Shown in pieces: positions 23,651-62,480 of a DNA stretch of 64,000 bases (positions within the stretch are counted from its first letter, which is position 1; each line of letters opens with the position of its first letter). The position numbers and the translations under genes are program-made. Source of the stretch: Vairimorpha necatrix (lineage: Eukaryota); contig CP142729.1 in the NCBI GenBank assembly GCA_036630325.1, forward strand, positions 1,178,001 to 1,242,000, given 5' to 3'. Under the pieces are notes generated by a model. The model did no database searches. It saw only the letters and a program-made list of their open reading frames with translations, and was not told the DNA's origin.

Positions 23651-24529
23651 ATAGTTTCTAATACTTTTTGTTTTTTTAAAAAAAAATTTCCCTTTTATTA
23701 TAAAAAATATTTTTTATATGAATATATTAACAAATTCATCTTGGTGTTTTATATTATTCAATTGAAAAGGAAAATGTTTCATATTTAATATCACATGACA
23801 ATTAATAAAATGTGTTCATATTATAAATATATTACAATTAAGAAATTGATTGAAAAATATGGTACATTGCTAAAATAATTTGTAATATAATTTATAGCTT
23901 ATAATATCTTAAGGCGTCAAATCGTCTTTATTCGTTATATTTTTCATTATCAAAAAACTAGTATATATTCGAAATGTTTAATCTATTACTATTAATTATT
24001 TAGTAATGCTCTTTTTTAATTACCTAAAATCCCCATCAAATGTATATGTTATGGAGCTTTAAAATATATAAATTATTTGGTATAATTCTTCATAATTAAA
24101 ATAATACATACTTATAATCTCAACTGCCAAGTCATCACAATTGTGTTGATGACTAAAATGTATTATATTCCAGAATAAAAAAATAAAATCGACAATTATT
24201 TATATTAACAAAGCACGTAAAGAGGCACTTTATTTTCCTCTTTGTTTTTAAATGATTATAAGCGTATTTTATAAGTCACGAGAAAACCTCTCATGACCTC
24301 TACTATTTTGTGAATGACAGGGTTGTGCTACTTTATTGAATAAAGTTACAAAAGAAACAGAAGAACTTAGGATTGCAATCATCAAACTGTACATTAAATT
24401 TTTTTAATCGCCATAATATAAGCCATTAAATTTGTTGGCTTAATAATGTGTGTTTGGCTCGAGCAAATCAGTTACTTGATCCATATCACACATTAAATTA
24501 TGTCCAGCATATATGATTATGTGGCACGG

Positions 24530-24910
24530 GCTTAATGATCTGTGGAGGAACATCTTCTTACAATCACAAAAGGCACCGACTATCATCAGCATCGCGTAAA
24601 CGATTGCTTACACAGCCGCAGCACGGCTCTCTATTTTATGGACCATCTTTTATTGGACTATTCGGTTTCACCGACGCGTTTCATGTCCTGTGTGATGGGA
24701 TCACGAAACCTTCCGACAACTTCTTCTATTCTCTTGACATGGCTAGAATAATAACACATTAGAGACTCTACGCTGAGGATCATACAACATATATAGACTT
24801 TACTTACATTCTAACAGAAGTGGCCCTAAACATTACAGTTCTTTGGGCGTGTCTTCCATATGGCCGTAGATCCCTGTGGCTTAACCCACACGAGTTTTAC
24901 AACTCGTCTG
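24530..24910 (-). mobile_element. old diverged fragment of the tRNA-SINE family
   Basis: Colinear similarity to 51360-51740 (CTTACACA.CC.CA, GAT.GG..CACGA.ACCTTC, CCCTGTGGCT..AC.CACAC.AGTTT); no head or tail seen. Confidence 0.6.
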
Positions 24911-26779
24911 AACTAAAAATTACCATCTACATATAATATAGCTGCGAATATTTCAACACCACAGCGAAATAATTTTTTGAGCTCAAATGAATTTGTTTCT
25001 AATTTTTTTAATACAATGACACAAAGCGACCATCCCCAGAACCATGTTTTTCTTTGTCATTTATGACGTAAGAGCTGCTTCTCTATGGTAACTAAAATTT
25101 TGCCCATAAAATCAATCCGTGATGCTGTGCTGATTTTTAAATAAATTTATTGCAACTGAAAATTGCCAATGATTCTATATTTTCTTCTTGCAGTTTTATT
25201 TTTTTTACATTAAATGGGTTTGCCTATATTTTTTTAAATATTTTCCATTTGGTAAACATTACATGAAGAAACTTTTTTCTATATAATATTATATTTATCG
25301 AATTGATAAGTAAGCTTTATAGATTGGATGGTTTAGATTTTCTACATTTATTCTTAATCTACATATGGTTTTAAATCATGTAAATTTGATGTTACTTCCG
25401 CCGCCATTTGCTTTTTTAATGACAATTTAATTGGCCCGGAGTAGTAACCTGATAAACCTTTCATAAATGGTTTTACTTTGCTACTGACAAATAATCTTGT
25501 ACTAGCATTTTCATAATAAAACTGAAATATTGTAACATAAACATGAATAATATTAAATAAAAAAATCGAAGAGTGGTATTACTAAACCTACCACGCGATC
25601 TCGCTACTATAAATTTACGATTGAAAAAATTAAACCTGCAAAGTTTAAAGAGATTGATGTACATCACTTACTAATCCCTTATAATATTTACAAAACACAT
25701 ACATAATTCATTATCAAATTGATTTTGTACTCATTTTTCTATTTCTGAACCCATCTTGCAATGTAGTACAAATTTATTTTATTGTATTTTATAAAAATAT
25801 AAGTAATTTAGAATGTAAGATATTTTATTGTTTTGTATATCACAACTTACCCAGTTTGCATTATACTAACCGTCAGTGTATAAGCTATTATAAATTTTAT
25901 TGTCGATGTTTTCTTTCAGTAAAGGTATTTTAATAAAATTTATTACTTAATATCTTTTGTTTATTTTTCGAAAGATTTTTGTCATGAATCTTCTTCTTAG
26001 GTGAACAAAACAACCAAATAATAAACAAAATTAAAAGACCCTATATACTTAATTTACAAAAAATTACAATTAAATATGTTATTTTTATTTTGTATTTTGG
26101 TAATTTTAGTGGTTGTTGTTTTTTAGCTTTCTAGTTCTTATTTTTTACTCTAAATTAATTTTTTAAAAAAAAAATTACGACTTTTAAATGCATATATTTC
26201 AAGTGATTTTTTATATACTAGTCTATTGGTCTACGATTATCCAGGCCTTGAAAACTTCTAAATTCAAATCAATTTTGTGTCTATCTTCCTTTAGTTTGTT
26301 TGAATATTATTAATATATTTATTTTTTATGCAGCTTAGGCTTCAATGTATGTATATCTTTTCACCATGTAGTATATGCCTAGTTTTTTGAATTAAGTCTT
26401 TTAGCAGCTATATTGATCAAATCAGCATTAGTGTAATAGAATTGCTGTTTTTTAAAAAAAGGCGCTAAATTTGGAGTACTTGTGATTTCTATATACGTAT
26501 ATGAAATAATAAGTGCAAACAGAAATGTATAAAATGGTCGATATACAGCATAAATTTTAAATAAAAATTGTTTATATAACATGCCAAACTCAAATATGTA
26601 AATATAGGCTTTCAATTTTTGATTATTCATTATTTTCAAAATTATAATAAAACATTTGCTTATGTTAAAAATTGTTAATTTGTGCATCTTGAGAGTTGGG
26701 GGAATTCTCATTTCAGAAGTGTTGAGATTTAACGTATAAAACGTAACGACATTCTAAAAAAATTCTAAAATTTCGATGA

Positions 26780-38102: not shown

Positions 38103-40525
38103 TGTCAAGTGACAGATCTCCAGTGGTCCTAAGATTGCCCTGGAGCTCAGAGAATACAATTCTATAAGTATTCTCTTCCTTCTCCCAACTATGTTTATGG
38201 AGGGAAAATGTATAATATTTTCCCGCCTATAAATATAAAAGAAAATCATACCCAGAAGGGTATGAAGAATAATAAAAATATTAGTCTAAAACATTCTTCT
38301 CGGACTGATGGGAAACCATCAGTCCACAATGGTGGTAACGGTGAAGAGGATTTGAACGATCACTTTAATAGTCTCATCACGCACATGAAAAAAATATGTC
38401 TGAGCAATAGGTGGACAGAATTTAACGGCGAAACTTTAAAACAAGCCGAAGATTTTTTAACTCAGTTCCGCGAAATTGAGGACGTGTATACGCAAGAGAA
38501 AACGCTAGATATTGCCAAATCTAAACTTAAAGGCAAGGCGTTAACATGGTTCAGAGCGTTCGAGGGTGATGAAATTACAGACTATGATTCATTCAAAACC
38601 CAGTTTAAAAAAAAGTATTTAAAAGAAAAACTAGCAGAAGATATAACTGATAGGTTCATACATCTATACGTGGAGGGTCCAAGAGAAGGCGACATTTTAA
38701 GTTACGCTTACGACCTCAAAAGATGTGCAAAAGGAAACCCTGAATATTTTGCCAGATCAAAGATTTCTATAGGAAAGAACTCCCCTGATAGGTTGAAGGA
38801 GTCTATTGAAGAAACGAAAGATTGGTTGGAATTGCTGGAATTAGTTGATAACAAACAAACTTTTATAAATAACTATTTAAACAAAAAGAAAACACTTAGT
38901 AGGAAACCAACATATGAAGCCACTAAACGAGAAAGGAAAAATAATAAACTTATTGGTGAAAAGGCAGAACAAGTATATTCTGCCAAGCTTTTAAAGTTGG
39001 GGAAAGGAAAAAATACTACTAAATTACAAGATATCCGCCCGAGGATAAATTTATATTCGGGAACAACACAAATATCCGCTCTTAATGATACCGGATCTCG
39101 AGAGAATCTTAAAAGTAAAACAATGATTCAGAAATTGGAATTAAAACCAATAATAGATACGCTTAAGGTAGATAGAAAAGGAGACCAGGTTGAAGCAGAA
39201 GGGAAAACACAAGTTTTTATCAAAAAGACAAAGATCAAGAAAAAATTAAAGATCGAGGCTCATGTAAAAGAGAAATTACCGGAAAACTTCATCATTGGCA
39301 TACAAGATACCAAGAAACTAAATCTACTAAAAAGTCTCGATAAAATGGAATATGACAGAACAAAGAAATCTGTCTGTACAACTATGGTGAAAAAACCAGA
39401 CACGTATATAACAGAAATGGGCGGAGAGAATCTAGTTCAGGAAGAAAAAGAAAAAAGTAATAAACTTGATATAAAACCTTCTATAACATTCCATATTAAA
39501 GACCAAAGCTCAAGTGTACATCGTAGCATAGATTTGAAAGTGCCAAAGGATCTTACAGCATTAAAGAACATTCAACATAGAAGACTAATGAGTCAAAATG
39601 AAGCGATAAGAGTCAAGCCCGTAGAACTGGTGAAAGAAGCCCATACTGGAGAAACTTGTTCGACGTGTACTATCCCGATTGCTTTAGACAAAGGATTTTT
39701 CAGGGACAAAGGAATATATGTGAACCCGGGAGAACTTTACATAATTAAAAAACAAGTTGGTTACCCAACTCCTTACATTGAAGAATTACATGATCCACCT
39801 GAATGTATAAGATGGGGCTTGAATTTAAGGCATCGTCAGATAAGTACCTGGGAGGAATACAGAGAACAGTCGCCATATAACGGACTAATAAAAAATGTTC
39901 ACGGGCGTAGTGTACCCCCTGGGCTTAGAAATATACCATTCAATTTTAATTTTATGATAAATGGATGGCGTAAAAATTACGACGAAGGTTTAGAAGTGCC
40001 TTACTACACACATATCATTTACACGATGATTAAACCAGGAGAAGAAACAGGAATAGTTTATAAAAATGAGAAATTAGGTGTTCATAAACTACAAAACACA
40101 ATACAAAGGCGAAACCCGCCGATAAACCTCAAGAAGAAAGTGATTGATAAAAGGGTAAAGTCATATATTACCCCTGTAGCCAAAATAAAGCGAGCCTATA
40201 ATTCATATAACCTAAATAAGGACGCAGTCACTATTTACTGCAAGTACTTTAAGATGTGTCGTCAAATGGGAACCTAGGAGGCTTTAAAGAAGGGGGGAGT
40301 GTCAAGTGACAGATCTCCAGTGGTCCTAAGATTGCCCTGGAGCTCAGAGAATACAATTCTATAAGTATTCTCTTCCTTCTCCCAACTATGTTTATGGAGG
40401 GAAAATGTATAATATTTTCCCGCCTATAAATATAAAAGAAAATCATACCCAGAAGGGTATGAAGAATAATAAAAATATTAGTCTAAAACATTCTTCTCGG
40501 ACTGATGGGAAACCATCAGTCCACA
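38103..40525 (+). mobile_element. non-autonomous LTR retrotransposon B (226-bp identical LTRs)
   Basis: LTRs 38103-38328 and 40300-40525 (TG...CA); TSD TTTAG; PBS-like TGGTGGTAAC; PPT AAAGAAGGGGGGAG. Confidence 0.93.
38208..40277 (+). CDS. Gag-aspartic protease-degenerate RT, 689 aa
   Basis: LKGKALTWF (retrotransposon Gag), ALNDTGS...IIG (protease), PYIEEL...VPPGLRNIP...YYTHII (RT-like, lacks YxDD); no RNaseH or integrase seen. Confidence 0.8.
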   Translation: MYNIFPPINIKENHTQKGMKNNKNISLKHSSRTDGKPSVHNGGNGEEDLNDHFNSLITHMKKICLSNRWTEFNGETLKQAEDFLTQFREIEDVYTQEKTLDIAKSKLKGKALTWFRAFEGDEITDYDSFKTQFKKKYLKEKLAEDITDRFIHLYVEGPREGDILSYAYDLKRCAKGNPEYFARSKISIGKNSPDRLKESIEETKDWLELLELVDNKQTFINNYLNKKKTLSRKPTYEATKRERKNNKLIGEKAEQVYSAKLLKLGKGKNTTKLQDIRPRINLYSGTTQISALNDTGSRENLKSKTMIQKLELKPIIDTLKVDRKGDQVEAEGKTQVFIKKTKIKKKLKIEAHVKEKLPENFIIGIQDTKKLNLLKSLDKMEYDRTKKSVCTTMVKKPDTYITEMGGENLVQEEKEKSNKLDIKPSITFHIKDQSSSVHRSIDLKVPKDLTALKNIQHRRLMSQNEAIRVKPVELVKEAHTGETCSTCTIPIALDKGFFRDKGIYVNPGELYIIKKQVGYPTPYIEELHDPPECIRWGLNLRHRQISTWEEYREQSPYNGLIKNVHGRSVPPGLRNIPFNFNFMINGWRKNYDEGLEVPYYTHIIYTMIKPGEETGIVYKNEKLGVHKLQNTIQRRNPPINLKKKVIDKRVKSYITPVAKIKRAYNSYNLNKDAVTIYCKYFKMCRQMGT

Positions 40526-41498
40526 TTTAGATTTGGATAAAAATGCGGTTGAAAAGAATACTAATATAATAATGCTTAAATTATCTGAAAATACAAAAAT
40601 TGAAAATAAATATCAAGAAAGAAGAAAACAAAAAGAGAAAAACTTTAAAAAGTTAATAAAAATATATAATAACCATTTAGTACATGAAAAGATTGACCAA
40701 GTGATAGAAAAAGCTCAATATCTAAATAGTGAAAATTTTTTGGAAAAAGAAACAAGAACAATTTTAGAAAATAATTTAATCAATGATGGAATGCAAATAA
40801 TTGAATCAGCTTTTAATAATTATATTCCGGTAAAAGGAAAAACATATATAGAAAAAATTATGTTCGAAGTAAAGAATTTTTTTTCTACGAATATAGACGA
40901 AGAATCGGCGTTTGAATTTAAAATCAAAAAAGAAGAAAGTTTTAAAAAAAACATATATTTAATAATAAAAAACAAGACAAAAGAAAGAGGAAAGGCAGAA
41001 TTGCCGAAAGCCATTAAAAACTTGTTTAATAGTATTTTCGAAAAAGACGCAATTAAAAAAGAGAAAAGTAAAAAACTCTTGGAGAATATAAAAACTGTTT
41101 TGGAGAAGCAAGAATTTAAAACTTATTTGAATAAGGAATTTAGTAAAGATATTCATAACGAATTAGTAAAAGTGCTTGAAATGCACGACAAAAATAAATA
41201 ATACGAGTTTAAAAATTTTTTTGTAAGAATATGCTTAACATATATTATTATGCTATATTTTGGTTTTCAAAACATATATCAAACATACCAAACAAATTAA
41301 ATTATGCCTTTTAGCTTTTCATATTTTTATTAACTGTAATTCAAGTCTTTTTTATTTAATATATAATATCGAATTATAGAATAGTCTACCATTTTAATTG
41401 CGCATGCCTCAAGTCTGTAAATATGACTGTCTATTTTTAATTTTAGTAAAACCAGTTCTAAAACGTCGTTTTTTGTTTTGTAAAAACTTCTATTTTTA

Positions 41499-43361
41499 TT
41501 TTTTTTTCTTTGCAAGTAAGAGGTGGGGTAACCCCTTACATATATAGCAGAGAGATTTGGGTGTGATCCTTATCCAACTGGCACTGTGAGATTTTTACTT
41601 ACTAAAACTCCCCATATAACTTTCCGGTCCCTCCGCCGTATCCATTGGACTTTGGCTCCAGGAAACCCTTTCCATATATACACTAAATTGCGTTCAAAGT
41701 GAACTCGCATCAGACACATTTGACGAACATGGGGGTTATGACCCGGGGAAAGACATCGTCGTACTATCTCAAAGATTCCAAAGTCATCTGTATCACACAA
41801 ACGGCTCCTTACACCAAAACATCGCAGAGTGGCCTTTGATTGGCTGCGTTAACCACCAGCCTTCCACTAGATTCGGCAACTTATTAACAGAATCTTAAAG
41901 AATAGGATATGCGAGCCCTTCTATTGACCTTTTTTGTCTAGTCTTTTGATTAACTCTATGACTCCGCACTTTATAATACACCAGCCATGAACTCCAACTA
42001 GGCCGTACCCAACAGATACTTCTATGTATTATTAATCCTCAGGCGTTTCTTAAATTCAAAATCACAGGTGTAAAAATAAAAAAAACCTAATCCATTTATT
42101 CCAACAAAAGTAATTTCGTAGAAGGTTCGCATAAGTATCGATATTTCGTTTTTAATATTTATTTCTGAACCGAAACTCATACATGACATCTTCTTTATAA
42201 ATCTTCAATATTTCTCTTATTGCTCTAAATTCAGTTTTTAAATGACTCCACAGATTCTCTATTCTATTAGTATGATGTTCAAACTCATTAGTAAAGCCAA
42301 TACTATGATTTACAACTTCATGAACAGAACCGAAATCGCGAACAACAGAACGGTAAGATGCAAAACATCATTTCTTATTATCGTTCCTTGGCCAACATGA
42401 CGCTTGATAATCTCTAGCATTACAGCCGCAGTCCTATTAGAAATAATTTTTAGAAAACAGTCTTTTCCTTCAATTTCTATACCTCCAACCAACCAAGTCG
42501 TTCCAGATATATCTTTCTCCTCTGTGGTAGGATTCGTAATTATACGACCTCTACAGATTGCCACTTCGTCGACCTTAATAGTTTTCATTATTCCCCTCAC
42601 TTTTACAAAAAATGTATTATTTCATATTTAATTTTTTCTTTAATAGCCCTTTGAAAGAAATATATGTGGGCTCAGAGACTTCACATATTACTGAGATCAT
42701 GAGGTTATTAGAATTACCCAACAATACAACATCCTAAGTTGTATATGTCTGGACATCCGTGACTTTTGAAAAAAGTACCATTTTTGATGCTTTTTTTGTG
42801 CAGACATTTTTGCAATAATGCAAATTCCTTCCAAGTAATTTTTAGGCTTTACTTGGTTCATAAAACAGCCACAGTCACACTTTACAGTTTTTTTGTAAAA
42901 ATTTAGAGACTTTAAGTACCTCTGCCCGCCTTTTCTTCAACAAAGAATATGTTGTAAAGATCTGAAACTTGCATAGGTGTAAAAAATTAAAATTTAAAAA
43001 TCGCTTTCCATAAATTCAAAATCACCGAGGATTTTGACATTTATTTGTAGAATGTTACAATGCATGTTCGCATATTCAAATTTTTTTTAACCCTGTGATT
43101 TTGAATTTAAGATGCGCCAATCAAGAAATTGGTGATACTATTTTTAGGCCTTAAGGTAGACTTCGACACTAGGTGCCAATCCCGTTGGCTAGAAATGCAC
43201 AAGTTTCATTGAATCAACCTAGTAGTTATTATGAACATTTTCATCATCTATGTTGTTCCAACTTCATCACAGAAAGTAGAAACAATTTCGGTGAACCTGG
43301 AATTTAAACCCAGCCATTACTCAATGGAAACATAGTCTTCAACCACTTGGCTAAAGGGACC
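41499..43361 (-). mobile_element. tRNA-derived SINE copy 1 (diverged, interrupted by a Merlin)
   Basis: Poly(T) on + then TTGCAAGTAAGAGG; body colinear with 51102-51896; degenerate tRNA head at ~43290-43361. Confidence 0.8.
42042..43118 (-). mobile_element. decayed Merlin element inserted in SINE copy 1
   Basis: TIR GGCG..TCTTAAATTCAAAATCACAGG; fragments KVDEVAICRGRII, TWLVGGIE, NRTA, HHTNRIENLWSH. Confidence 0.85.
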
Positions 43362-43908: not shown

Positions 43909-46900
43909 ATGGATATCGTTACAATATTTACTTCATTTATATTTATACAATCTAATCTTGAAGTATTAGACAAAATCAACAATAACCAGAAAGTTTATGA
44001 TGAACTTAAGAATATGATCATGAAAAAAATAGAAGAAAAGGATTATGTTCATTTTAATTGCAGGGAAAAGTTTATTAAAGTATATCTTCGTTATAATAAT
44101 GAATATAAAAAATTTTACATAAATATAGAAATAATATCGTCGTCTGAATTCAATATAGGCTTAGAGCAAATCGAATTCCAACACGACAATAAATCTGTTA
44201 ATGAAATTACCGAACTTATCGAATATTATGTAAAACAACATTTAGAAAAAATAATAAATGATTCTATAGTTTTGGTATACGATCCAGTAAGTTTAAAAAC
44301 TTGTCTTATTATGAAAAATATTGTAGAAGATATTAGAAGAATTAATGAAAATAGACGGATAAATAAAAAAGGGTGGGAAATCTATTATGATTATATATGC
44401 GAGACAGATTGTTACTTACTTAGAATGTTGGCCGGTATAAAAGTCGGTACAATTATGAATGAATATAATATAAGTATATATGATATGTATTGTTGCTTAT
44501 TCTCAAAATCTTCTGACACATGCATTAGATTTTACATCAAGAACGGAGACATTTTCTATTTATTCGAATATAATGTAGAGGAACAAAATATTTATAGAAT
44601 CATTACTTTGAATGACACAAATATTAAGCTAAATGATGAGTATGATGAGGATATTCTAAATAAGTTGCTTGTTTTGTGTAAATTATTTGATATGAATTAT
44701 ACGGTGAAAAATGCGACAGCAGAAGAATTGAAATTTACCTCTAATGTGATTGATATCCCAAAATTAGATTTTAGACTTAAATTGGGATTTGATAAAATAT
44801 TCTTTAAACATACTTTTGGTGAATATGAATATCATTTCAATAACGATCTAACTAAAAAAGATGGCAAATTATATATTAAAGAAAAAACTTTTAGCGAGTT
44901 CAAAATCTTTTTTGAAAACATACCTACAACTGTCAATGTTATAAATGATATTTATGCTGTCGAAATATTATATAGAATCTTAAAATATCATAACTGTTTA
45001 TTTTAAGATATCTTAAGGGTAATAAAAATACAAATTTATAAATATTCAACATCCCTCCTCTTTTATAAGCTAATATACAAGTACTTTGAGTTGAGACGCA
45101 TGTCTTTTAAGCCTTCTTCCTTTCGATAATACTATATACGAATTATTTTCTAATCGTTCTATAATCTGTCCTCTATCTTTAAACTTGGGTTGTCCTTTAG
45201 CTACAGCAAATTCGTTCTTTATTATCACCTGATCGTTTTCATTAAACACTTCTTCGACTTCTTTATTCTCGTTTGCTTTGTTAAAGATAATAATTTCTTC
45301 GTATTGTTTTTCTTTTATTTTTGTCTCGTTTTCTTTTTTACAAGCTTCGTTTGGTGACATTCCTAGTTTCGAGTGGCAGATATTATTGTAAGCCTCTAAC
45401 ATTTTTAATAGTTTTGATTTTAGATTTAGATTTCCCTCTTGTTTGTAAATCCCTTCCTGCACAGTTCTATTAAATCTTTCTACACGCCCATTTGATTGAT
45501 GGTGAAAGGGCGTTGAGTAATGTACTTTTACTTTATTCTCTATAGCCCAGTTCTTTACTTTGCTACTTTGGTTTTCTTTTGATGAATCCATTATCAACTC
45601 TTTAATTAATATTTGTTTGTTAATTTCGTTTATAAAATCTACAATTTTCTGACTATCTCTAGTGGTAATAACTTTTCCAAAACCCTTTCTACTAAAGTAA
45701 TCAATTCCTGTTATTATATATTGTTTATTTATTGGTCCTATAATGTCTATAGCTACCTTTTCTCCTGTATAAAACGATTTAACGAACAAAAAGGCTTTTC
45801 CTCTTTTTGGATTATACATTTTACATCTTATACACTTTTTCAACTCTTCTTCAACTAATTTCTCCATATTATCCCAAGTATATTCTCTTTTAAGCTCTTT
45901 GGCTACTATTTTTGCTCCACGATGAACTAATTTTTCGTGTTTATCTTTAATAAGTTTCCTTTTTGTGTCATCATTTAAATCTTGAATTTCATTAACAACT
46001 TGGGCATCCTTTTGGTATAAGCGAGATATATAGTCTACATGTGCCATTTCTGCTCCCCTTCTGTATTTTACTGTGAAATTATACTGACTAAGTCTATCTA
46101 GCCATCTCTGTATTCTTTGAGAGCCTATTTCTCCTTTATTCAGAACTTCTAAGGCTTTATGGTCTGTTATTACTTCAAATTCATTCCCGTACAAGAAATA
46201 TTTAAAATTCTCCATTCCCCATAATACTGCTAAGCATTCCTTTTCACTGATACTATAGTTTATCTCAGCAGGTAAAAGTCTTCTTGAAGCATATGAAATT
46301 GGATAAATCGTTTCACCTTGTCTCTATGAGAGAATTGCGCCAACACCCGAATTACACGCATCTGTTTCTAGTATAAATGGTTTTGTATAGTCTGGTTGAT
46401 ATAATGCTATATTTGATTTTATAATAGTTTTAAGCTCATTAAAAGCTTTATCTTCCAGTTCTCCCCAACAAAAATTTTTATCTTTTTTGAGTAAATCATA
46501 CAAGCATCCTGCAACACTTGAGCACATGGGAATAAATTTTCTATAAAAATTTATAAAGCCAAGAAATTCTTGTAAAGATTTTATATTTTGGGGCGGTTTA
46601 ATTTCATCAATACCTTGGCTAGCTTCTAATTTTGGTTTTATTTTGTTATATTCTATTATGTGTCCTAAAAATTCTACTGATGTCTTTTTGTAGATAGTTT
46701 TATCTTCATTTAATCGCAAATCATTATTTTTTAATCGTTCTGTTATAATCCGAAAATTTTTATCATGAATTTCTTCAGTTGTTCCAAAGACCAAAATATC
46801 GTCAACATAAATGAAACATCTTTTACCAATATCCTCTTGTAAAACATCATCCATAAACCGTTGAAATATGGCCGGCGAATTTTTAAAGCCCATTGGCATT

Positions 46901-49565
46901 ACATTCCATTCGTACAAATGATGTTTATGTCTAAAAGCTGTCTTGTGCCTGTCTTCTTCTGCTAATTTTATTTGAATTACCCATCTTTTAAATCTAACTT
47001 TGAAAAATATTTTTGATCTTTTAAATTATGTAAAATTCTTTCTATACTTGGAAGCGAATATTTATCCAAATCTACTAACTTATTAAGTGCAATCAAATTT
47101 GTTGTTACTCGAACCGATCCATCTGGTTTCATAACTGGTCTAAGATTGTTTAACCACGTAGATCTTGATTTTTGAATATATTTTTTCATTAACAACTTTT
47201 CTATCTCGGCGTCTATGGCTACTTCTAATTTCTGTGGCAATCCATACACTCTTTCTACGACTTTTTCTCCAGGTTTTGTTTTAATTTGACACACTCTGTT
47301 TTTTGGCTTTGCAAAAATTTTGATTAACTCCTGTTTTCCTAATAAAATTTTAAATTTATCAACCTTTGGTAAAATAAAGAGTTCGGTTTTATATATTTTG
47401 TCCATATAATTAAATTCAAGCTCTACTATATCTCGTACTTTAAATTCTTCATCTAAACACGTAAAAAAGCTCAATTGCTTTATCCTCCTCGACACCTGTA
47501 ATTTCAATTCTCTAACTGCACAATAAGAAATAAAATTGAAACTAGAACCAGAATCAAAAACCACAGGTACTTTCTTAAAATTAACGTAGACGTAATTGTT
47601 TTTATTTTCATAAAATGAAGTGCTTTCTTCTAATCTCTCTTCATTATCAGATACTATCTCATGTACTTGCTTACTTGAACCTGTATCTCTATTTCTATTC
47701 CGAAAATAGCAACTTGTAGAAATGTGTCCTGGCTTTTACAAATGAAGCAGGTTTTAGTTTTTCTCGGAGTTTCTTTTATGCTTAAATTTTTGAAGGAGAA
47801 TGATAAATCGGCCTCCTTCTCCATTTCTTCAATGGTTTCATAAAATTCATCGTCAGTGTCATATTTACTGGATAAAAATATTTTTATAAGTTTATATCTG
47901 GGTTTAATGCCGTTTTTTAGAATTTTCCTTCTATCCTTTTCTTCAATTTTTAAAACTTCGCATAATTTTATCGTTTCCTTTATAAATACAGAAACTGATT
48001 CATTATCCCTTTGTTTCTTAGAGCAAAGGTCTACAATAGAAATTTTTGTACTAAATTTCTCTAATGCTTTGTTTTTCCAATCTTCATAATTATAACTTGC
48101 TTTTCTTTTATTAGCAAATTCTTCTAAATGCCAGTTTAAGATATTTTCATCAAATCTACTTATAAATTCATCCATTTTATCTTCGTCCTTTTTTATATTC
48201 CATTTACTAAGAGCCTCTGCTCTTTTTATTTCATGTATTATGTTGTTTTTAGTTATTTTTTCGTTCATATTCTCCACCATGTTTATTTTAAGATATCTTA
48301 AGGGTAATAAAAATACAAATTTATAAATATTCAACAATAACAAAATAAAATCTTTGATGACTGAAATATTAAAAAATAAAGAATCAGGCTTAAATATAAT
48401 ATGTGCGCATTTGTTGTTGTCTAAAGGTATATTGACCCAATATGGATATGATATATTGATGGGTATAGAAGATATTTCCTTAAATGAAGCCGTAATAAGT
48501 CATATTGTTGATATTGCACATGAAAATGACCAATTAACTAATGGTTTACATTTTTATTTAATCAAAAAATGTTTACTCATAGAGGCAGAAAGATTTATAA
48601 ATGAAAATAATGTAGATGATGATGTGGTTTATAAAACTATAAAAGATATTTCCAAAATCGCTGAATTAAAAAATGCTGCAAATACATTTGGCTTAGATAC
48701 TAGAAAAGGTGTCATTAATTTTTCGAAAATAATACAGGACGCAATACTTACGCATCTTGATAGAATTCGAAACTACAAGAACACTATTCTGAACCATAAA
48801 ATCAAAATAAGTACCATGTTTACAGGAATTTTTGATATTAATGGGGATGGGCATGAGCAACATGAACATAAAAAAAATGAAATTATTCAGTGTTTAGGAT
48901 TGGAAAAAAACGAAGTTGCAAAAAATACTAAAGTAATAATTCTTAAATTATCTGAAAATACAATAATAGATGATGTATATCGTGAGAGAAGAAAACAAAA
49001 AGAGAAAAATTTCCAAAAGTTAATAAAAATATTTTATAACTCTTTGGTATATGAAAAGATGGATCAAGTGATAGAAAAAGCTCATAATATAGGTAACATA
49101 GATCTTTTAGAGAAAGAAAAAAGAACAGATATAGAAGATCAATTAATAAATGAAGGAATGCAAATAATTGAATCATCTTTTGATAATCAATTTTTGATAA
49201 AAGGAAACCCGCGTTTAGAAAAAAATCTTATCGAATCAAAGATTTTTTTTGTAATGAATATAGATGAAGAATCGGTATTCGAATTTAAAATCAAAAAAGA
49301 AGAAAGTTTTAAAAAAAACATATCTTTAATAATAAAAAACAAGACAATAGAAAGAGGAAAGTCAAAACTACCAAAAGCATATAAAAATCTCTTCAATAGT
49401 ATTTTTGAAGAAGACACAATGAAAAAAGAGAATAATGAAAAACACTTGGAGAATATAAAAGCGGTTTTGGAGAAGCAAGAATTAAAAAACCATTTAAATA
49501 AGGAATTCGGCGAAGAACTTCATAATGATTTGGTAAAGGTACTTGAAATGTACGAAAAAAAATAA
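43909..49565 (+). pseudogene. paralog 2 of the ~770-aa secreted-like family, interrupted by LTR element C
   Basis: Removing the element plus one TSD restores the frame (LKYHN-KIKSLMTE); colinear with paralog 3. Confidence 0.9.
44995..48336 (-). mobile_element. Ty3/Gypsy LTR retrotransposon C with identical 57-bp LTRs; gag-PR-RT-RH-IN frameshifted
   Basis: LTRs 44995-45051 and 48280-48336 (TGTT...AACA); TSD ATAAC; PBS TGGTGGAGA; PPT AAAAGAGGAGGGA; FDSGS, YVDD, TDAC and GRVER motifs lie in four ORF pieces. Confidence 0.93.
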
Positions 49566-50560: not shown

Positions 50561-51101
50561 AGTCTTCGGGACTATCAAATACCGAAAAATCAACATATAA
50601 ATTATCTTCTTTTAAAATTTAAATTGAATTGTTAAATATCTTATTTTAAAATTTTTTCTATTTTTACATTCCGCTATGTTTTTTTTTCCAATGAGGGTTC
50701 CAAACAGTCATATAACAAAAAAAAATCTTACAGAGGTATATTTCGTAAAATCCAATGTATAAACTCAATTATTAGAATAGTAAATTTTTGGATAAGCTAA
50801 AAATAGGAAAAATCAGTACTCGCCAGAGAAAGAACATCCGTGAAAATAAAGCACGCGCCCTCAATAAAAGTTTGAAAAAAGATGTTAAATAGTACTAGCC
50901 GATAAATACCACACGTATTTTTTATCAAATTGGTTAGACGAAATTTTTTAATTGGAAAAGGTTTATGATTTTAATTCTAATGTGACGGCTTAAAATATAA
51001 TTGTGATTAATTTCTACTGGCCAAAGTTAAAAGCATCATTTAAACTTTTGAACAGAAGCATAAATAAAGACAAGCATTCATAAAAAGGCCTCGGAAACAT
51101 A

Positions 51102-51896
51102 TTTTTTTTTTTTTCTTTGCAAGTAAGAGGTAGGGAGAAACCTTACATAGGGACCAGAGGATTTGGGTGTGATCCTTTTCCAACTGGTACTGTGAGATTC
51201 TTACTCACTAAAACTCCCTCCGTATAACTTGCCGGTGCAGCAAGCTCCGCCGTATCCATTGGACTTTGGCTCCAGGAGAACTTTTTCCATTTATACCTCA
51301 AATCGCGTCCAGAGTGACCTCACAGCGGATATACTTAACGGGCATGGTTATCTATAACCCGAGGAGAGACATCATCGTACTGACTCAAAGGTTCCTACAA
51401 TCATCTGTATTGCACACGCGGCTCCTTACACAACCACATCATCAGCCCGGCGTTTTTATTGGGCTGCGTTGACCACCAGTCTCCCACTAGTTTCGGCCAC
51501 CGTGTTATAAAATCTTGTAGGATAGGGTCCACGAGACCTTCTGTTGCCCTACTTCGTCTAGCCTCTTAGTTAGCTCTAGGATCCCACTCTAGAGTGCACC
51601 AGCCATGGGCTCCAACTAGGTCGTACCCATTAGATACTTTTATGTATCATTAAGTCACCAAAGGGTGATACTGTTTTTCAGGCCTTGAGGTGCGTTTCTA
51701 CACTAGATGCTAATCCCCTTGTGGCTGGACACACACAAGTTTCATTGAATCAACTTAATGATTATCGTGGACATTTTCATCATCTGAGTTGTTCCAACTG
51801 CATCATAGAAAGTAGAAACAATTTGGTGCCCCTGGGACTCGAACCCAGCCCATTGGTCAATGAGAACATCCCTTCGACCACTCGGCCAAGGGCACC
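51102..51896 (-). mobile_element. tRNA-derived SINE copy 2 (full length, 795 bp)
   Basis: Minus-strand head GGTGCCC..TGGCCGAGTGG (A box)..CTGGG-TTCGAGT-CCCAG (B box/T arm)-GGGCACC; A-rich tail; TSD CTCGGAAACATA at 51090-51101 and 51897-51908. Confidence 0.9.
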
Positions 51897-53739
51897 CTCG
51901 GAAACATACTGGTGCCAAGAAGATAGGGATTGATACAGATCAATTTGGATATTTGCGAAAAACAAGAGAAAGTCTGAGAAAATTTCAGTGTAGATTCGGG
52001 TTGGAAGCAAGTGAATCCTGCAAATAGTAATGAATAATGAAAGGTTTTATATACGAAAACCGAATTTAGAAAAAAAAATCATCTAGTTTATATGTGCTGC
52101 GCAACGGTCGTGCTCAGACTATCCTATTTTTTTACGTACTGAATTCAGGTATAGATAGTAAGGTGGAAATATTTTTTACGAACAATATTTCCTTGGGTCG
52201 AAATTTTACAGATTTGTTAAATAACATCCGGATTGAATTTCTTAAGTTATGAACTTTTTGTTTTTTAGATGATTTTTTATGTTTATATTTTACCCTTATG
52301 ATGTGCCTGGGGCCGCTGGACAGTAGATCAAAAATCTTCTAAGACACACATGAGGCATTATCTGCCTAGTTAATGAAAATATACTTAAAACAACACAAAA
52401 TGTACGATTGTTTTGGTATAATGGTACTAACTCCGACGATGCGTACATGACGGTCACTGAATCAAGCGTGATGAAAGACGGGATGTGAAACATTAATTTA
52501 AAATTGTAATAAATCTTCATTTTCTAATCTTCGAAACCCATACATTACTATTTATGTTCTGTATTCATTCACTGAAAAGCAGTCTAAACTTAAATAAAAA
52601 TTCCCGCGTGTAAGCTTCCAGTGTCTTTGGGGCAAAAAAAATATAAAATGCACTAAAAAAGGAAAATATCAAACTTCAGAAAAACATGAAGAGTATAAAA
52701 AGTGATACTTACTCACGAAACGGTATTAGTAAAAGGAAATTTGTAAAATCGCCATCGGAAAAACATGACACAGTCAAAAACTGTACATTGTTGCTAGAGA
52801 CAATAGACGAGCGAACATTAAAATTGAGAATTGAAATACAACAAACCTATAGTATAAAGACGTTATGTCTGTTTATTAAAAATACATAAAAACGAAACGA
52901 TTTGCAGTTCGATGGCCATAAATCATATCTCGCAGCAGTAAAATCTATCAATGGCGATAATTGTGTTGTTATCCATGATACAGGCTTTAAAAACGAAGCA
53001 GTGAATTCTACAAATTTAAATTGAGGAAGTCTGGTCATATCTTATATATGATATAATAGCTGGGAAAAAAGGCTAAAGAAAGTGTTTTTAGAGTTTTTTT
53101 TAAAAGAATTTAATTGGAGAAGAAGGTGCGTAATATATAAAAATATCAAGAGTTGAGAGAGTTTTTGATTAAAATTATAAAAAGTTTTCTTTAGAATAAA
53201 TGCTTTTTGTCGTAGCCGATCAAATGGAGACAATCATATTCTTGCAAATGGACTGATTTGATTGGCTACAAAAAGTATTTAAAAACATTTCCGAAAGAGG
53301 GGATGGAAAATTCTAATAAAACGTTTAACACTTTTAATATTTTATTTGTTTTAGTTTCACTAAAAGGGGAACCTTCAGAGATAAAAAATTCCGGCACTGG
53401 CCGTTGCGCCATATATGTTGAAGCTAGGTTCTATACCGAAATATATAATATTATTTTTTTTTTCAAAAACTAAACAATTTTAAAATGCTTAAAGATTTTG
53501 TTGATTTATATTTTATTTCTTTTAGTTGAACCTGTCAAACGTTTATCTTATTTTAAATCGCCTGTCAACTGTCGTTTTGATATTTGACGTCCGTCAAAAT
53601 GAGAAAGACAGATCGAAAATGTCTTTTAATTTTCATGCTTACGATATAAATTAATGTTTGAATTGTGTCATTTTGCTTAGGCTTTTTATTGTTCACGTGG
53701 TATGCTTTGTATATAAATTTTTTTTATTTCCTACCCAAT

Positions 53740-56049
53740 ATGAAAATCATACAACTATTTGCTTCAATCCTATTTATACATTCAAATGTTGAAGTATTAG
53801 ATAAAATCAAAAACAATCAGCAAGTTTATGATAAAATCAATGAAAACATAATGGAAAAAATAGAAAAAAAGGAATATGTTAAATTTAATAGCAGTGAGGA
53901 GTTTATTAAGATAAATCTTTTCCCTAATGAAGAAAATAAAATTTTTTACATAAATATAGAACGAATTGCATTTGAAAGCAATTTAAACCAAGTAAGTTAT
54001 GAATTTGACTATTTTGATAAAACCATTAATGAAATTTCTATACTGATCGAACATTATGTAGAAACATATTTAGAAAAAGACACTACCGATTCTTTAATTT
54101 TGATGTACGATCCAGTAAATTTTATTGCATGTCCTACACTGAAAGATATAGTTGAAAATATTCAAAATATAAATGAAAATAGACGGATAAATAAAAAAGG
54201 ATGGGAAATATATTATGATTATATATGTAAAGCAGACTGCTATTTACTAAAAATGCTGGACGGAATAAAAGTCGGTATAATTATGAATGAATATAATATA
54301 AGTGTTTTTGATATTCAACTTTGCTATATTCCAAAATCTTTTGACACATGCATCAGATTTTACTTCAAGGACGGAGATATTTTTTATCTATTTGAATTAA
54401 ATGCAGATGAACTTAATATTGATAAACTCATAACCTTGAATGACACAAATTTTAAGCCAAATTGTGAGTATGATGGGGATATTCTGAATAAGTTGCTTGT
54501 ATTGTGTAAACTCTTTGATGTTTTACATACTGAGCAAAATGTGACAAAAGAAGAATTTAGCTTATCTTCAAATATGATTGATATACCAGAGTTAAACCTT
54601 AAACTTGAGAATGATTCACCAAAAGTATGTTTTAAACATACTTTTGGCGAATATGAATATTATCTTAAAAACGAACTAACTAAAGAAGATGGAAAATTAT
54701 ACATTGAAGAAAAATGTTTTAGCGAGTTTAACTTATTTTTTCAAAACATACCTATAACAAACAATGTTTTAAATGATATTAAGGCAGTCGACATGCTATT
54801 TGGAATATTAAGGAACTTTAACCAAATCGAATTTTTGATGACTAAAATATTAAGAAATGAAGGATCGGCTTATAAAGTAATATGTGCGCATTTGTTGTTG
54901 TCTAAAGGTATATTAACCCGAGATGGCTTTAATATATTGATGGGAAGAGAAGATGAAGCAGAAAAAGAAGAGATAATTAGTAAGATTGTTATAATTGCTC
55001 ACCAAAATTACCCATTAACCAATGGTTTACATTTTTATTTAATAAAAAAATGTTTACTTATGGTGGCAGAAGGGGGTTTAAGTGAAAATAATGGTGATCT
55101 CGATGTGATCTATAAAACTTTTAATGAAATTTATAAACTTATTGAATTTAAAAAGGTTACTAACGAAACTGATCGCAGTTTAAAAAAAGATGCTAATCAT
55201 AATTTGAAAATAATACAAGAAGCAGTACTTGCTCAAAAAGATAATATTAAAAATTTTAAATGTGCTGTTATGAAACATTTGGCAAAAATAATTTTCATGT
55301 TCACGGAATTTTATGATTTTAATGGACAAAAATGCGATCAACATGAACATAAAAAAGATGAAATTGCCACAAGTTTAGAATTAGATAAAAATGAGGTTGA
55401 AAAGAATACCAAAATAATAATGCAAAAATTGTCCGAAAATACAATAGTAGATAATGTATATCAAGAGAGAAGAAAACAAAAAGAGCAAAACTTTAAAAAG
55501 TTAATAAAAACATTTGCTAACTACTCATTAGATAAAAATTTACAAAAAATTATAGAAAAAACCAAAAATTTAGAAGTTGAAATTATTTTAGATGAAGAAA
55601 CAAGGACAAATATGGAGAATAATTTTCTCAATGAAGGAATGCAAATGATTGAGTCCGCATTTAGAAAATATAATATTATTAAATGGAAAACTTATATAGG
55701 AAACTTTTTTAACAAATTATTTGATGGTTCTAGAATGAATATGGACGAAGAAATAGCATTTGAATATAAAAGTTTAATTGAGGAAAATTTTAAAAAAAAT
55801 TTATATACAGAAATAAAAACGAAGATAAGAAAAGACGCATCACTAAAACTGCCTAAGACCATAAAAGCCATTTTTAAAGGTATTTTTAAAAAAGATACAA
55901 ATGAAAAAGGAAAGAATGGAAGGTACTTGGAGACTTTAAAATCAGTTTTGGAGACGCAGCAATTAGAATACCTTTTAAATGACGTTTTTAACTTTAATTT
56001 TCATGATAATTTGGTAGAGATACTTAAAATGCACGACAAAAATAAATAA
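53740..56049 (+). CDS. paralog 3 (intact, 769 aa) of a lineage-specific secreted-like family
   Basis: ACCCAAT-ATG; hydrophobic N-terminus MKIIQLFASILFIHS; shared motifs NENRRINKKGWEIYYDYIC, TFGEY, TNGLHFYLIKKCL, QHEHKK. Confidence 0.9.
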   Translation: MKIIQLFASILFIHSNVEVLDKIKNNQQVYDKINENIMEKIEKKEYVKFNSSEEFIKINLFPNEENKIFYINIERIAFESNLNQVSYEFDYFDKTINEISILIEHYVETYLEKDTTDSLILMYDPVNFIACPTLKDIVENIQNINENRRINKKGWEIYYDYICKADCYLLKMLDGIKVGIIMNEYNISVFDIQLCYIPKSFDTCIRFYFKDGDIFYLFELNADELNIDKLITLNDTNFKPNCEYDGDILNKLLVLCKLFDVLHTEQNVTKEEFSLSSNMIDIPELNLKLENDSPKVCFKHTFGEYEYYLKNELTKEDGKLYIEEKCFSEFNLFFQNIPITNNVLNDIKAVDMLFGILRNFNQIEFLMTKILRNEGSAYKVICAHLLLSKGILTRDGFNILMGREDEAEKEEIISKIVIIAHQNYPLTNGLHFYLIKKCLLMVAEGGLSENNGDLDVIYKTFNEIYKLIEFKKVTNETDRSLKKDANHNLKIIQEAVLAQKDNIKNFKCAVMKHLAKIIFMFTEFYDFNGQKCDQHEHKKDEIATSLELDKNEVEKNTKIIMQKLSENTIVDNVYQERRKQKEQNFKKLIKTFANYSLDKNLQKIIEKTKNLEVEIILDEETRTNMENNFLNEGMQMIESAFRKYNIIKWKTYIGNFFNKLFDGSRMNMDEEIAFEYKSLIEENFKKNLYTEIKTKIRKDASLKLPKTIKAIFKGIFKKDTNEKGKNGRYLETLKSVLETQQLEYLLNDVFNFNFHDNLVEILKMHDKNK

Positions 56050-60667: not shown

Positions 60668-61459
60668 TTTTTTTTTCTTGCAAGTAAGAGGTAGGGAGAA
60701 CCCTTACATAGGGACCAGAGGGGTTTGGGTGTGATCCTCATCCAACTGGTACTGTGAGATTATTATTCACTAGAACTCCCTCCATGCTACTTGCCGGTGC
60801 AGCAAGCTCTGCCGTATCCATTGGACTTTGGAACTAGGAGAACACTTTCCATTTATCTCTCTTTTGCGTCCAGAGTGACCTCACGGCGGATATACTTAAC
60901 GGGCATGGTTATCTATAACCCGAGGAGAGACATCATCGGACAGACTCAAAGGTTCCTACAATCATCTGTATTGCACACACGGCTCCTTACACAACCACAT
61001 CACCAGCCCGGCGTTTTTATTGGGTTGCGTTGACCACCAGTCTCCCACTAGTTTCGGCCACCGTGTTACAAAATCTTGTAAGATAGGGTCCACGAGACCT
61101 TCTATTGCCATACTTCGTCTAGTCTCTTAGTTAGCTCCAGAATCTCACTTTAGAGTGCACCAGCCATGGGCTCCAACTAGGCCGTACCCATTAGATACTT
61201 TTATGTATCATTAAGTCACCAAAGGGTAATACTGCTATTTAACTTTGAGGTGCGTTTCTACACTAGATGCTACCCCCCCCCCCGTGGCTGGACACACACA
61301 AGTTTCATTGAATCAACTTAATGATTATCGTGGACATTTCATCATCTGAGTTGTTCCAACTGCATCATAGAAAGTAGAAACAATTTTGGTGCCCCTGGGA
61401 ATCGAACTCAGCCATTGCTTAATGGAAGCATTGCATTCTACCACTGTGCTAAGGGCACC
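60668..61459 (-). mobile_element. tRNA-derived SINE copy 3 (full length)
   Basis: Body highly similar to copy 2; head GGTGCCC-TTAGCACAGTGGTAGAATGC...CTGAGTTCGATTCCCAG-GGGCACC; poly(A) tail; no TSD seen. Confidence 0.88.
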
Positions 61460-62480
61460 CCCTGTAATGTATCCTCAATAAACTAATATTGTGGAATTAT
61501 AATCATTAAATTCCCCCTATTTAAATTGATACTCCAACAAGCTCCGACGCGCCCATTGAGTTTTGACTTAGGAGGATCTACCACCTTTTACTTCAAAATC
61601 GCCTCCAGAATATTTGCAGTAGGTATGATTATAGACATGTTTAAATCCCCCCCCCCCAAAAAAAAAAAAAAACATGATTGTACTTACACGGAAGGCTGAT
61701 GCTAGCATATGCATCGAGTAAAGATAACTCCTCAAGTTATCATTTTATTGATCATTTGTCTCTACAAGTTTGTCAACGTGTTACAGTATTTATTAGATAA
61801 GACTTCTAAACCTCCTGCTTTACTTCATCTAGTTCTTTAATTCGCACGAAAGATCCACCCAGTGTGAACCGAAGGGCCTTTACAACTCTAACAGCACCAT
61901 TCGTATATTAAATTATCCTTAAACCTACATTTTTTTAGGTGTTATGGCGTGTTTCTTATTAAGACCTAAATTTATTTGAGATTGAATGCATACAATTTTT
62001 ACGAATCAACATAATTCACATCCTAAATATAAAGCTTCAGACTTATTTGTATACGATCTTAGTTCTTTATGTAATAATACAATTTTGTCGAACGCGCTGG
62101 TCGGTAATGACTAATGACCTTTATTCCTATATAAACAATTTTTTTATATATATGTGTTATGTCTTTCTATAACATAATTTTATTTTATTTATTTTATTTT
62201 CCCTACAAGTTTTTTAAAAATTATAAATAAAATTTTAAGAAAGGAGGGCATGATAAATTTAAAAGATAACTATAATCAAAAGAATAAATATAATGACAAT
62301 AAAAACATTAAAAATATAAAATATAACAAAAGCCTCATAGAGGCATATTTAAAAAATGGCCATGTCCCCATGGGACATCTCAATATGGCTAATCCTTGGT
62401 GTATTTAATTTATAAAGTAATTATGACACTTTAAAATTAGATCCAATTTATATTCTTTGGTTTTTTATATATTATATTGT

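What the first reader, a model, noticed from the sequence alone, without database searches (positions are those of the whole stretch)
51090..51908. A long tRNA-headed SINE family in a microsporidian
Seen: ~795-bp element with a tRNA-like 5' head (perfect 7-bp acceptor stem, A box, T arm/B box), a ~700-nt GC-richer non-coding body, an A-rich tail and a 12-bp TSD. Further copies lie at 60668-61459, 41499-43361 and, much older, 24530-24910. Established: this is the anatomy of Pol III SINEs mobilised by LINE target-primed reverse transcription. I do not know of well-characterised SINEs in microsporidia, and the body is unusually long. The heads could be mis-annotated as tRNAs.
Basis: partly seen in the sequence, partly recalled or inferred. 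Interest (0 to 1): 0.75.

Follow-up and report, generated by a model that had tools for sequence, protein, structure and literature searches.

The report
Microsporidian SINE with its partner LINE
This is a young copy of a roughly 100-copy non-coding jumping element (a SINE) in a microsporidian parasite; its tail end was borrowed from a rare resident LINE retrotransposon, and that tail folds into a four-armed RNA shape that also turns up behind the genes of unrelated retroelements.

Summary
Confirmed. Window 51102-51896 (-) is a 778-nt tRNA-headed element with a 17-nt A tail and an exact 12-bp TSD. The genome holds about 100 recognisable copies (103 tail hits, 101 head hits, 0 in controls). TSDs are 11-17 bp, and two copies with unrelated flanks are identical, so it moved recently. 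The scan reported this family before on other DNA of this genome. Added here: (1) a partner. The last ~160 nt derive from the final codons and 3' UTR of a rare APE-type LINE (LINE-B; 79% over 95 nt); the other three resident LINE families do not match. No complete LINE-B was found, so the current source of enzyme is open. (2) SINE and LINE-B tails fold independently into the same four-way junction with compensatory changes. Its core recurs just after the stop codon of three distant LINEs, one Copia and one Gypsy element, and resembles the Drosophila R2 3' UTR (Rfam RF00524, below threshold). ARAGORN of 51 heads tRNAs. An ordinary kind of SINE; the portable 3' module is the interesting, unproven part.

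The parts
51897..51908 (-). 5' copy of the 12-bp target-site duplication
51824..51896 (-). tRNA-derived head; closest resident tRNA for the family consensus is tRNA-Ala(TGC), small margin
   Evidence: anticodon arm variable, acceptor stem and boxes conserved
51878..51888 (-). A box of the Pol III internal promoter (consensus recalled)
   Evidence: sequence
51835..51845 (-). B box in the T arm
51280..51823 (-). non-coding middle body of unknown origin, about 545 nt
   Evidence: matches only other copies of the family among 177 loci; no Rfam match near gathering score; whole-element fold z -1.4
51185..51279 (-). segment homologous to the last 16 codons, stop and first 3' UTR bases of LINE-B (G000:C6, L141:5066-5159)
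   Evidence: 79% over 95 nt, E 2e-16 against 20 loci; translation FSWSQSPMDTAELAAP against LINE-B VSWSQSSMSTAELVAP and V. ceranae P0004 FSWSQSPMGMAELDAP
51129..51221 (-). predicted four-way-junction RNA module: P1, UUUUA, P2 hairpin with 7-nt loop, P3, P4, UUU, P1'
51102..51118 (-). A-rich tail
   Evidence: 12-32 nt in copies L001-L030
51090..51101 (-). 3' copy of the target-site duplication
60668..61459 (-). second full-length copy, 91% identical, no TSD recognisable
43128..43361 (-). 5' part of a third, older copy
42041..43119 (-). Merlin-type DNA transposon remnant inserted in the third copy
   Evidence: tblastn E 6e-18 to the window's IS1595-family transposase
41499..42037 (-). 3' part of the third copy with A tail
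24453..24931 (-). very old headless, tailless relative (model positions 125-632)
   Evidence: E 8e-17; control
61471..61871 (-). very old fragment (model positions 296-725) directly upstream of the second copy
   Evidence: E 2e-14

Best explanation
A tRNA-derived SINE with a LINE-derived 3' tail, copied by the enzyme of the LINE-B family. Step 1 (inferred): RNA polymerase III transcribes the element from the A and B boxes in the head and reads through a body that has no run of five U. Step 2 (ancestry shown, binding inferred): the last ~160 nt, taken from the end of a LINE-B-type element, fold like LINE-B's own 3' UTR, and LINE-B ORF2 protein treats the RNA as its own. Step 3 (footprints shown, chemistry from the established TPRT mechanism): the endonuclease nicks loosely chosen DNA, reverse transcription starts in the A tail, and a staggered second cut leaves an 11-17-bp TSD, usually with 1-2 extra purines at the 5' junction. 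Step 4 (shown): this has gone on for a long time (relics near 60-75% identity) and very recently (a 16-copy clade, identical copies at unrelated sites). Step 5 (open): no complete LINE-B lies in the stretches examined, so the enzyme must come from a copy outside this assembly or from a recently lost one.
For: Copy number: 41 of 42 matches span at least 740 nt at 93-100% (40 of 364 candidates scored); 103 exact hits of a tail 14-mer and 101 hits of a head 22-mer with up to 2 mismatches, 0 for reversed controls. TSD: 36 of 55 headed copies (of 91 tails examined) have an exact TSD, 11-17 bp, mode 14; 26 of these 36 carry 1-3 extra bases, mostly A. Recency: L004 and L005 are 100% identical and share no flank; L007 and L010 99.9%; young clade of 16 copies with support 100/100. 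Partner: of four resident non-LTR families only LINE-B aligns to the SINE's last 200 nt (score 104, z 28; LINE-A, Dong-like C and D z below 1). LINE-B copies end in poly(A), and stub L163 has a 12-bp near-exact TSD. The tails of SINE and LINE-B fold independently into one topology although the P3 and P4 sequences differ. T5 runs occur on the sense strand in 4 of 51 copies, A5 runs in 50 of 51 (the copies share ancestry, so this is close to one observation).
Against: Only two RT-bearing LINE-B copies and three 3' stubs were found. The best copy has an open 1084-aa frame but lacks the first ~60 residues of the endonuclease with its N and QET motifs; the missing part was not found in the 10 kb upstream of its array. 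The second copy is broken. Beyond the 95-nt block SINE and LINE-B keep structure but little sequence, so the real partner may be a sister lineage. The Dong-like RLE family is intact and young and leaves TSDs of similar length (12-15 bp in 4 of 6 parsed). The 3' module also occurs in Copia and Gypsy elements, which do not use TPRT, so it may serve RNA stability rather than enzyme recognition. No RNA evidence for this organism: all four runs laid were contigs, and the one RNA run matched only in short pieces. Whole-tail folding energies are only modestly better than shuffles (z -2.1 and -1.5).
Confidence: 0.72

Rival explanations
1. The tail came from LINE-B long ago, but the recent burst is driven by the abundant Dong/R4-like RLE element (or by LINE-A), recognising the RNA loosely.
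For: Dong-like family: intact 1199-aa frame, copies 96-99% alike, TSDs of 12-15 bp like the SINE's. LINE-A: at least 11 open 1242-aa frames. LINE-B is nearly absent. The module resembles the 3' UTR of R2, another RLE element.
Against: Neither family shares sequence or the module with the SINE tail; both end in T-rich tails, while the SINE and LINE-B end in poly(A); LINE-A copies were seen in tandem arrays, whereas the SINE is dispersed. The module stays conserved among SINE copies.
Confidence: 0.17
2. The four-way junction is a portable RNA-stability or translation element (for instance an ENE-like catcher of the poly(A) tail between its two U-rich strands), not the handle for reverse transcriptase. 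The SINE kept it because it protects the RNA.
For: Core found 8 nt after a Copia pol stop (L338) and 100 nt after a Gypsy pol stop (L336), and after a zinc-finger ORF (L335). UUUUA and UUU flank the closing helix. ENE triple helices stabilise a Copia RNA in Arabidopsis (PMC12501189, passages).
Against: Known ENEs are two-way U-rich internal loops (same passages); here the U tracts are short and three hairpins lie between them. L252, L254 and L333 lack the P4-UUU arm. Nothing was tested biochemically. This reading does not compete with steps 1, 3 and 4 of the main one.
Confidence: 0.35
3. The element came whole from an insect host by horizontal transfer.
For: TE exchange between microsporidia and metazoans is documented (PMC4202319, title and passages); the module resembles a Drosophila R2 UTR; insect repeat libraries could not be searched.
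Against: The tail's donor sits in a microsporidian and fungal LINE lineage (V. ceranae 78%, Smittium about 41%, Nematocida 35%; clade support 99/97); very old relics show long residence; three tail motifs had 0 hits in 12 supplements on lepidopteran SINEs (PMC8010984).
Confidence: 0.07
4. A multi-copy functional non-coding RNA gene, or tRNA pseudogenes that happen to lie beside LINE debris.
For: Conserved acceptor stem and B box; GC-rich body; ARAGORN calls.
Against: Copy-specific TSDs, A tails, 5' truncation, nested insertion into another copy's head (L013) and star-like decay; no special folding of the whole element; the body matches no LINE.
Confidence: 0.03

Closest known systems
tRNA-derived SINEs with a LINE-derived tail (stringent pairs); in fungi Mg-SINE with MgL/MGR583 and SINE2-1_BG with Tad1-24_BG (PMC3747384 table, passages)
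   Same: tRNA head, non-coding body, 3' end shared with a resident APE-type LINE, TSDs
   Different: First such pair that I could find in a microsporidian; about 780 nt; the shared part includes the LINE's last codons; the partner belongs to a microsporidian and Smittium lineage whose clade name I could not fix, and is nearly extinct in the assembly
Drosophila R2 3' UTR structure, Rfam RF00524
   Same: Closing helix, UUUUA, 5-bp hairpin, two further hairpins, UUU, closing strand, in the same order, with matching junction bases; R2 SIDE keeps that fold with compensatory changes (PMC3414825, passages)
   Different: 22 bits against a gathering score of 38, E 0.036 on 901 bases; only model positions 79-206 and without a 32-nt insert; LINE-B and L252 give no RF00524 match; a genome search with RF00524 gave 0 of 49 scored candidates; R2 has an RLE nuclease, LINE-B an APE
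ENE poly(A)-binding triple-helix elements of retrotransposons (PMC12501189, passages)
   Same: 3' UTR position, U-rich strands on both sides of a G-C-rich helix, poly(A) downstream, presence in LTR elements
   Different: Multi-way junction instead of an internal loop; short U tracts; no triplex test
'SINE' fraction of Nosema bombycis (PMC3614468 Table 2, passages)
   Same: SINE-class repeats in a related microsporidian
   Different: Only a total of 28,669 bp (0.18%) in the passages seen; no sequence, head or partner; identity with this family untested

Membership tests
tRNA-derived SINE | 5' head derived from tRNA with A and B boxes | tested here: met
   parent most like tRNA-Ala(TGC) among 49 sequences from 55 of 63 tRNA loci, small margin
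tRNA-derived SINE | Non-coding, under about 1 kb | tested here: met
   778 nt; longest stop-free stretch 54 codons sense, 86 antisense in the consensus
tRNA-derived SINE | Dispersed, many copies | tested here: met
   103 tail hits, listed places on all 12 contigs; 101 head hits
tRNA-derived SINE | Variable-length TSD and A-rich or simple-repeat tail | tested here: met
   36 of 55 headed copies with exact 11-17-bp TSD
tRNA-derived SINE | Transcribed by RNA polymerase III | not testable with these tools
   only contigs available; lack of T5 runs is consistent
Stringent SINE/LINE pair | 3' end homologous to a resident LINE | tested here: met
Stringent SINE/LINE pair | Shared 3' RNA structure | tested here: met
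   predicted only: same topology in independent folds; P4-UUU-P1' arises in 3 of 2000 (SINE) and 20 of 2000 (LINE-B) shuffles
Stringent SINE/LINE pair | An intact partner is present | tested here: not met
   best copy 5'-truncated inside the endonuclease, second broken; other haplotypes not held
Stringent SINE/LINE pair | Partner protein mobilises the SINE through the tail | not testable with these tools
   needs a retrotransposition assay
R2 RNA element (RF00524) | Reaches the family's gathering score | tested here: not met
   22 against 38 bits; none for LINE-B or L252
R2 RNA element (RF00524) | Same helix order and junction nucleotides | tested here: inconclusive
   clear in the alignment of the SINE tail over model positions 79-206, but one sub-threshold hit
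ENE | U-rich internal loop forming a triple helix with poly(A) | not testable with these tools
   architecture differs; needs melting or probing
Functional tRNA gene | Rfam tRNA score and stable anticodon arm | tested here: not met
   below gathering score; not among the 63 scored tRNA hits; anticodon arm is the most variable part
A described SINE family (SINEBase, Dfam, Repbase) | Sequence match to a catalogued consensus | not testable with these tools
   libraries not held

The most novel reading that the evidence does not exclude
The SINE carries a portable 3' RNA module (closing helix, UUUUA, a T-loop-like hairpin, two variable arms, UUU) that has been exchanged among, or kept by, APE-type LINEs, RLE-type R2 elements and Copia and Gypsy LTR elements. 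The fold long known as the Drosophila R2 recognition signal would then be one case of a general retroelement 3' device, acting on RNA stability or on loading of the enzyme.
Probability: 0.4. Interest if true: 0.8.

Novelty: new member of a known kind. Interest (0 to 1): 0.5.

Why it matters
It gives a defined, recently active SINE/LINE pair in a group known for genome reduction, where I found no characterised SINE in ten library searches. About 100 heads can inflate tRNA counts (39 of 51 copies are called tRNA-Met by ARAGORN). Young insertions could serve as strain markers. If the 3' module is shared across retroelement orders, it makes a standing question testable: what R2-like 3' UTR folds do, since here the same fold can be swapped among an APE LINE, a SINE and LTR elements.

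Tried and rejected
Pfam Exo_endo_phos_2 found no endonuclease in the genome (0 of 21 candidates), a false negative: APE LINEs were found through RVT_1 and protein searches. LINE-A and the two Dong-like families were rejected as tail donors. A 38-nt tail-only hit (L124) has no LINE upstream. 5S origin for the head of the second, 450-bp repeat was rejected (score 56; shuffles mean 45, maximum 66; no Rfam match). A loose genome pattern for the module was uninformative (976 hits against 1202 in the control). Viral collection: 0 hits; 24 hits of which 3 pair in P2; 7 hits, of which the one inspected lies inside a phage gene. Two of the three P2-pairing hits lie 24 nt behind a dicistrovirus-like capsid ORF, but the covariance model did not pick them up, so I do not count them. 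One search gave 2 hits, one a degenerate tRNA arm and one without context. Of the 9 hits, 2 do not pair, 1 lies in a Vibrio gene and 2 (L331, L339) have no retroelement ORF next to them. Only 2 of 80 metagenomic LINE relatives carry the module, and both were in the model's training set. MAFFT could not align P3 and P4 across lineages, so the tool's pair count covers P2 only: 7 sequences, one covarying pair, 15 of 500 shuffles as high. Sequencing runs: 20 of 24 listed hold part of the element, none half of its words; of the four laid, two cover the flanks too, one contig bridges the 3' junction, no listed joint skips the element; runs with small shares were not read as habitat. The sigma-70 scan is irrelevant here. 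The RT tree did not fix a clade name; 9 of 22 inner branches are open. PDB search separates neither R2 nor L1 as nearest.

Full report
Setting. The window is G000:C4:1178001-1242000 of a 15.0-Mb, 12-contig genome. A LINE protein of this genome is identical to a record labelled Vairimorpha necatrix, with a 78% relative labelled V. ceranae, so the organism is a Vairimorpha-type microsporidian.

Observation. The minus strand holds a 73-nt tRNA-like head (51824-51896), a 705-nt remainder, a 17-nt A tail and an exact 12-bp TSD. The element is 47% GC against 29-33% in its flanks. A fifth, old fragment lies at 61471-61871.

Family. A DNA search scored 40 of 364 candidates and returned 42 matches, 41 of them spanning at least 740 nt at 93-100%. 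A tail 14-mer has 103 exact hits and a head 22-mer 101 hits with up to two mismatches; reversed controls give 0. These are lower bounds. Of 91 tails examined in fetched loci, 55 had a head that my pattern recognised; 36 of the 55 have an exact TSD of 11-17 bp (mode 14), and 26 of the 36 have 1-3 extra bases, mostly A, before the head. Two of the 36 (L029, L030) share a flank and are not independent. A second parse of 37 sites showed no strong target consensus beyond a T-rich start. The focal copy belongs to a 16-copy clade (100/100). L004 and L005 are identical with unrelated flanks; L078 and L080 are a segmental duplicate and say nothing about activity. Relics near 60-75% identity show long residence.

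Head. [quoted passage not shown] Among 49 tRNA sequences from 55 of the 63 tRNA loci found, the family consensus is closest to tRNA-Ala(TGC) (top five hits all Ala; scores 71 against 62 for the best non-Ala), while the young head scores about equally with Leu and Ala. Some isotypes were not in the set, so the parent is a best guess. ARAGORN of 51 copies tRNA, 39 as Met; Rfam does not at gathering score.

Partner. Four non-LTR families were found: LINE-A (APE, RT, zinc finger; many open frames, tandem arrays, T-rich tail), two Dong/R4-like families (class inferred from RT and C-terminal motifs), and LINE-B. Only LINE-B matches: SINE positions 618-712 align to its last 16 codons, stop and UTR start at 79% (E 2e-16 against 20 loci; z 28 against below 1 for the others). 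The SINE still translates there to a peptide matching 12 of 16 residues of LINE-B's end and 13 of 16 of the V. ceranae protein's end. One contig of an RNA run (X19, record 9) matches 47 nt of this block with two differences and continues on both sides in a way that looks by eye like a LINE-B relative. LINE-B groups with V. ceranae, Smittium and Nematocida proteins (99/97). Against the simple picture: all 64 candidates of a protein search and 40 of 63 of a DNA search gave only two RT-bearing copies and three stubs; the best lacks the start of its endonuclease. The species is described as tetraploid (PMC10759460, passages), so an intact copy may lie in a haplotype not held here; that is inference.

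The 3' module. Folded separately, SINE tail and LINE-B UTR give the same four-way junction; P1 and P2 have pair probabilities above 0.9 in both, P3 is weaker in LINE-B. Rfam's best structured hit on the tail is RF00524, the Drosophila R2 3' UTR, with the same helix order and junction bases, but at 22 bits (gathering 38, E 0.036). LINE-B and L252 do not hit it, nor does a genome-wide search. The core (UUUUA, 5-bp hairpin with 7-nt loop, A-C/G-U, next helix) lies 19 and 43 nt after the stop in 2 of 80 metagenomic LINE relatives at 28-30% protein identity (L252, L254). Pattern scans of the prokaryote collection, where such contigs are probably eukaryotic contaminants of bins, added a LINE (L333), a Gypsy-type pol (L336), a Copia-type pol (L338) and a zinc-finger ORF (L335), each with the core on the sense strand within 150 nt of the stop. 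The pattern fixed most of P2, so three things count as independent. First, that position. Second, two P2 pairs were left free on each side and all 5 of 5 hits are Watson-Crick at both (about 1 in 1000 by chance at equal base use; read). Third, the P4-UUU-P1' arm outside the pattern is present in SINE, LINE-B, L338 and L335, and arises in 3, 20, 9 and 314 of 2000 shuffles; own strands pair 96% (P1) and 100% (P4) against 69% and 58% across sequences (these four were chosen because they show the arm, and the helices were fitted per sequence). L252, L254 and L333 lack P4. The loop pattern U-N-N-R-A-N-U fits a T-loop (recalled, not tested). The module is patchy: LINE-A, the Dong-like families and 78 of 80 LINE relatives lack it.

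Mechanism. Pol III transcript, LINE-like 3' fold, TPRT by LINE-B-family ORF2 (0.72). Shown: anatomy, TSDs, tail ancestry, recent spread. Inferred: polymerase, binding, present source of enzyme. Because LTR elements carry the module too, it may stabilise RNA instead of, or besides, recruiting the enzyme (0.35, not exclusive).

Literature. Ten library searches showed no characterised microsporidian SINE and no report of this module across retroelement orders; the library lacks most subscription papers. Passages only were read. [quoted passage not shown] PMC11585130 reports no SINE in Microsporidia MB; PMC13702014 plots a SINE category whose values I could not see; PMC3614468 tallies 28,669 bp in N. 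bombycis. PMC3747384 lists two fungal SINE/LINE pairs. PMC3414825 (passages and supplement 1) describes the Drosophila R2 fold; its conserved R1 segments show no UUUUA hairpin core by eye. PMC8010984 (passages, 12 supplements searched), PMC5786205 and PMC11194090 (passages) added nothing on the module. The original R2 structure papers were seen only as references.

Earlier scan notes. At least eight earlier findings describe this family on other DNA of this genome; one mentions a folded tail module found in unrelated retroelements. Look-ups by LINE-B protein and by the tail found nothing, and none of the summaries shown names a resident partner.

Verdict. A real, recently active tRNA-SINE, a new member of a known kind, with its tail donor identified. 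Interest 0.5, carried mostly by the 3' module (probability 0.4 for the cross-order reading, interest 0.8 if true).

Noticed in passing
L101:5223-5673 and 5664-6114 (G000:C3:844422-845313); also L105, L141, L247, L376: A second non-autonomous repeat of about 450 bp shares its last ~315 nt (86%) with the 3' UTR of LINE-A and lies in the same tandem arrays; its 135-nt head is not 5S-derived and has no Rfam match.
   Followed up: partly
G000:C6:699-727 kb (L376, L105, L106, L141); similar clusters on C1, C2, C3, C4, C5, C11, C12: LINE-A copies and the 450-bp repeat form head-to-tail arrays, one to three clusters per contig; both RT-bearing LINE-B copies sit in or beside such arrays. Self-targeting or a chromosomal landmark are possible.
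   Followed up: partly
L013:1436-3044; L121:313-1266: A young SINE copy inserted into the B box of an older copy with a 12-bp TSD (L013); two extra heads stand in tandem before a copy (L121).
   Followed up: no
window 51867-51896: The young clade changed its A-box region to a sequence like that of resident tRNA-Leu and tRNA-Ser genes; the head is the fastest-changing part of the family (0.89 against 0.95-0.98 column identity).
   Followed up: partly
L143:1820-5416; L145, L151, L155-L157, L160: Two Dong/R4-like families, one with an intact 1199-aa frame, very short 3' UTR, T-rich tail and 12-15-bp TSDs.
   Followed up: partly
window 36437-38167, 40572-41201, 43909-45006, 48357-49565, 53740-56049: Tandem family of a ~770-aa protein without Pfam match (three frames scanned), two copies interrupted by LTR-element sequence.
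   Followed up: no
window 33047-35518: Element with 162-bp inverted ends enclosing two IS1595-family (Merlin-type) transposase frames.
   Followed up: no
window 27821-30865, 45070-48280, 38101-40525: Ty3/Gypsy-type elements: a 1014-aa pol frame, a fragmented one, and a gag-bearing element between identical 228-bp repeats.
   Followed up: no
window 22445-23650: 401-aa proline-rich protein with a hydrophobic start and no Pfam match, resembling a polar tube protein by composition (recalled, untested).
   Followed up: no
L359:310-332, L360:2501-2523: A hairpin like the module's core, with a 6-nt loop, 24 nt behind a dicistrovirus-like capsid ORF; not recovered by the covariance model.
   Followed up: partly
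L234 (G000:C1:1431923-1432126): A 104-nt intron-bearing tRNA that ARAGORN reads as Leu(AAG); the call may be wrong.
   Followed up: no
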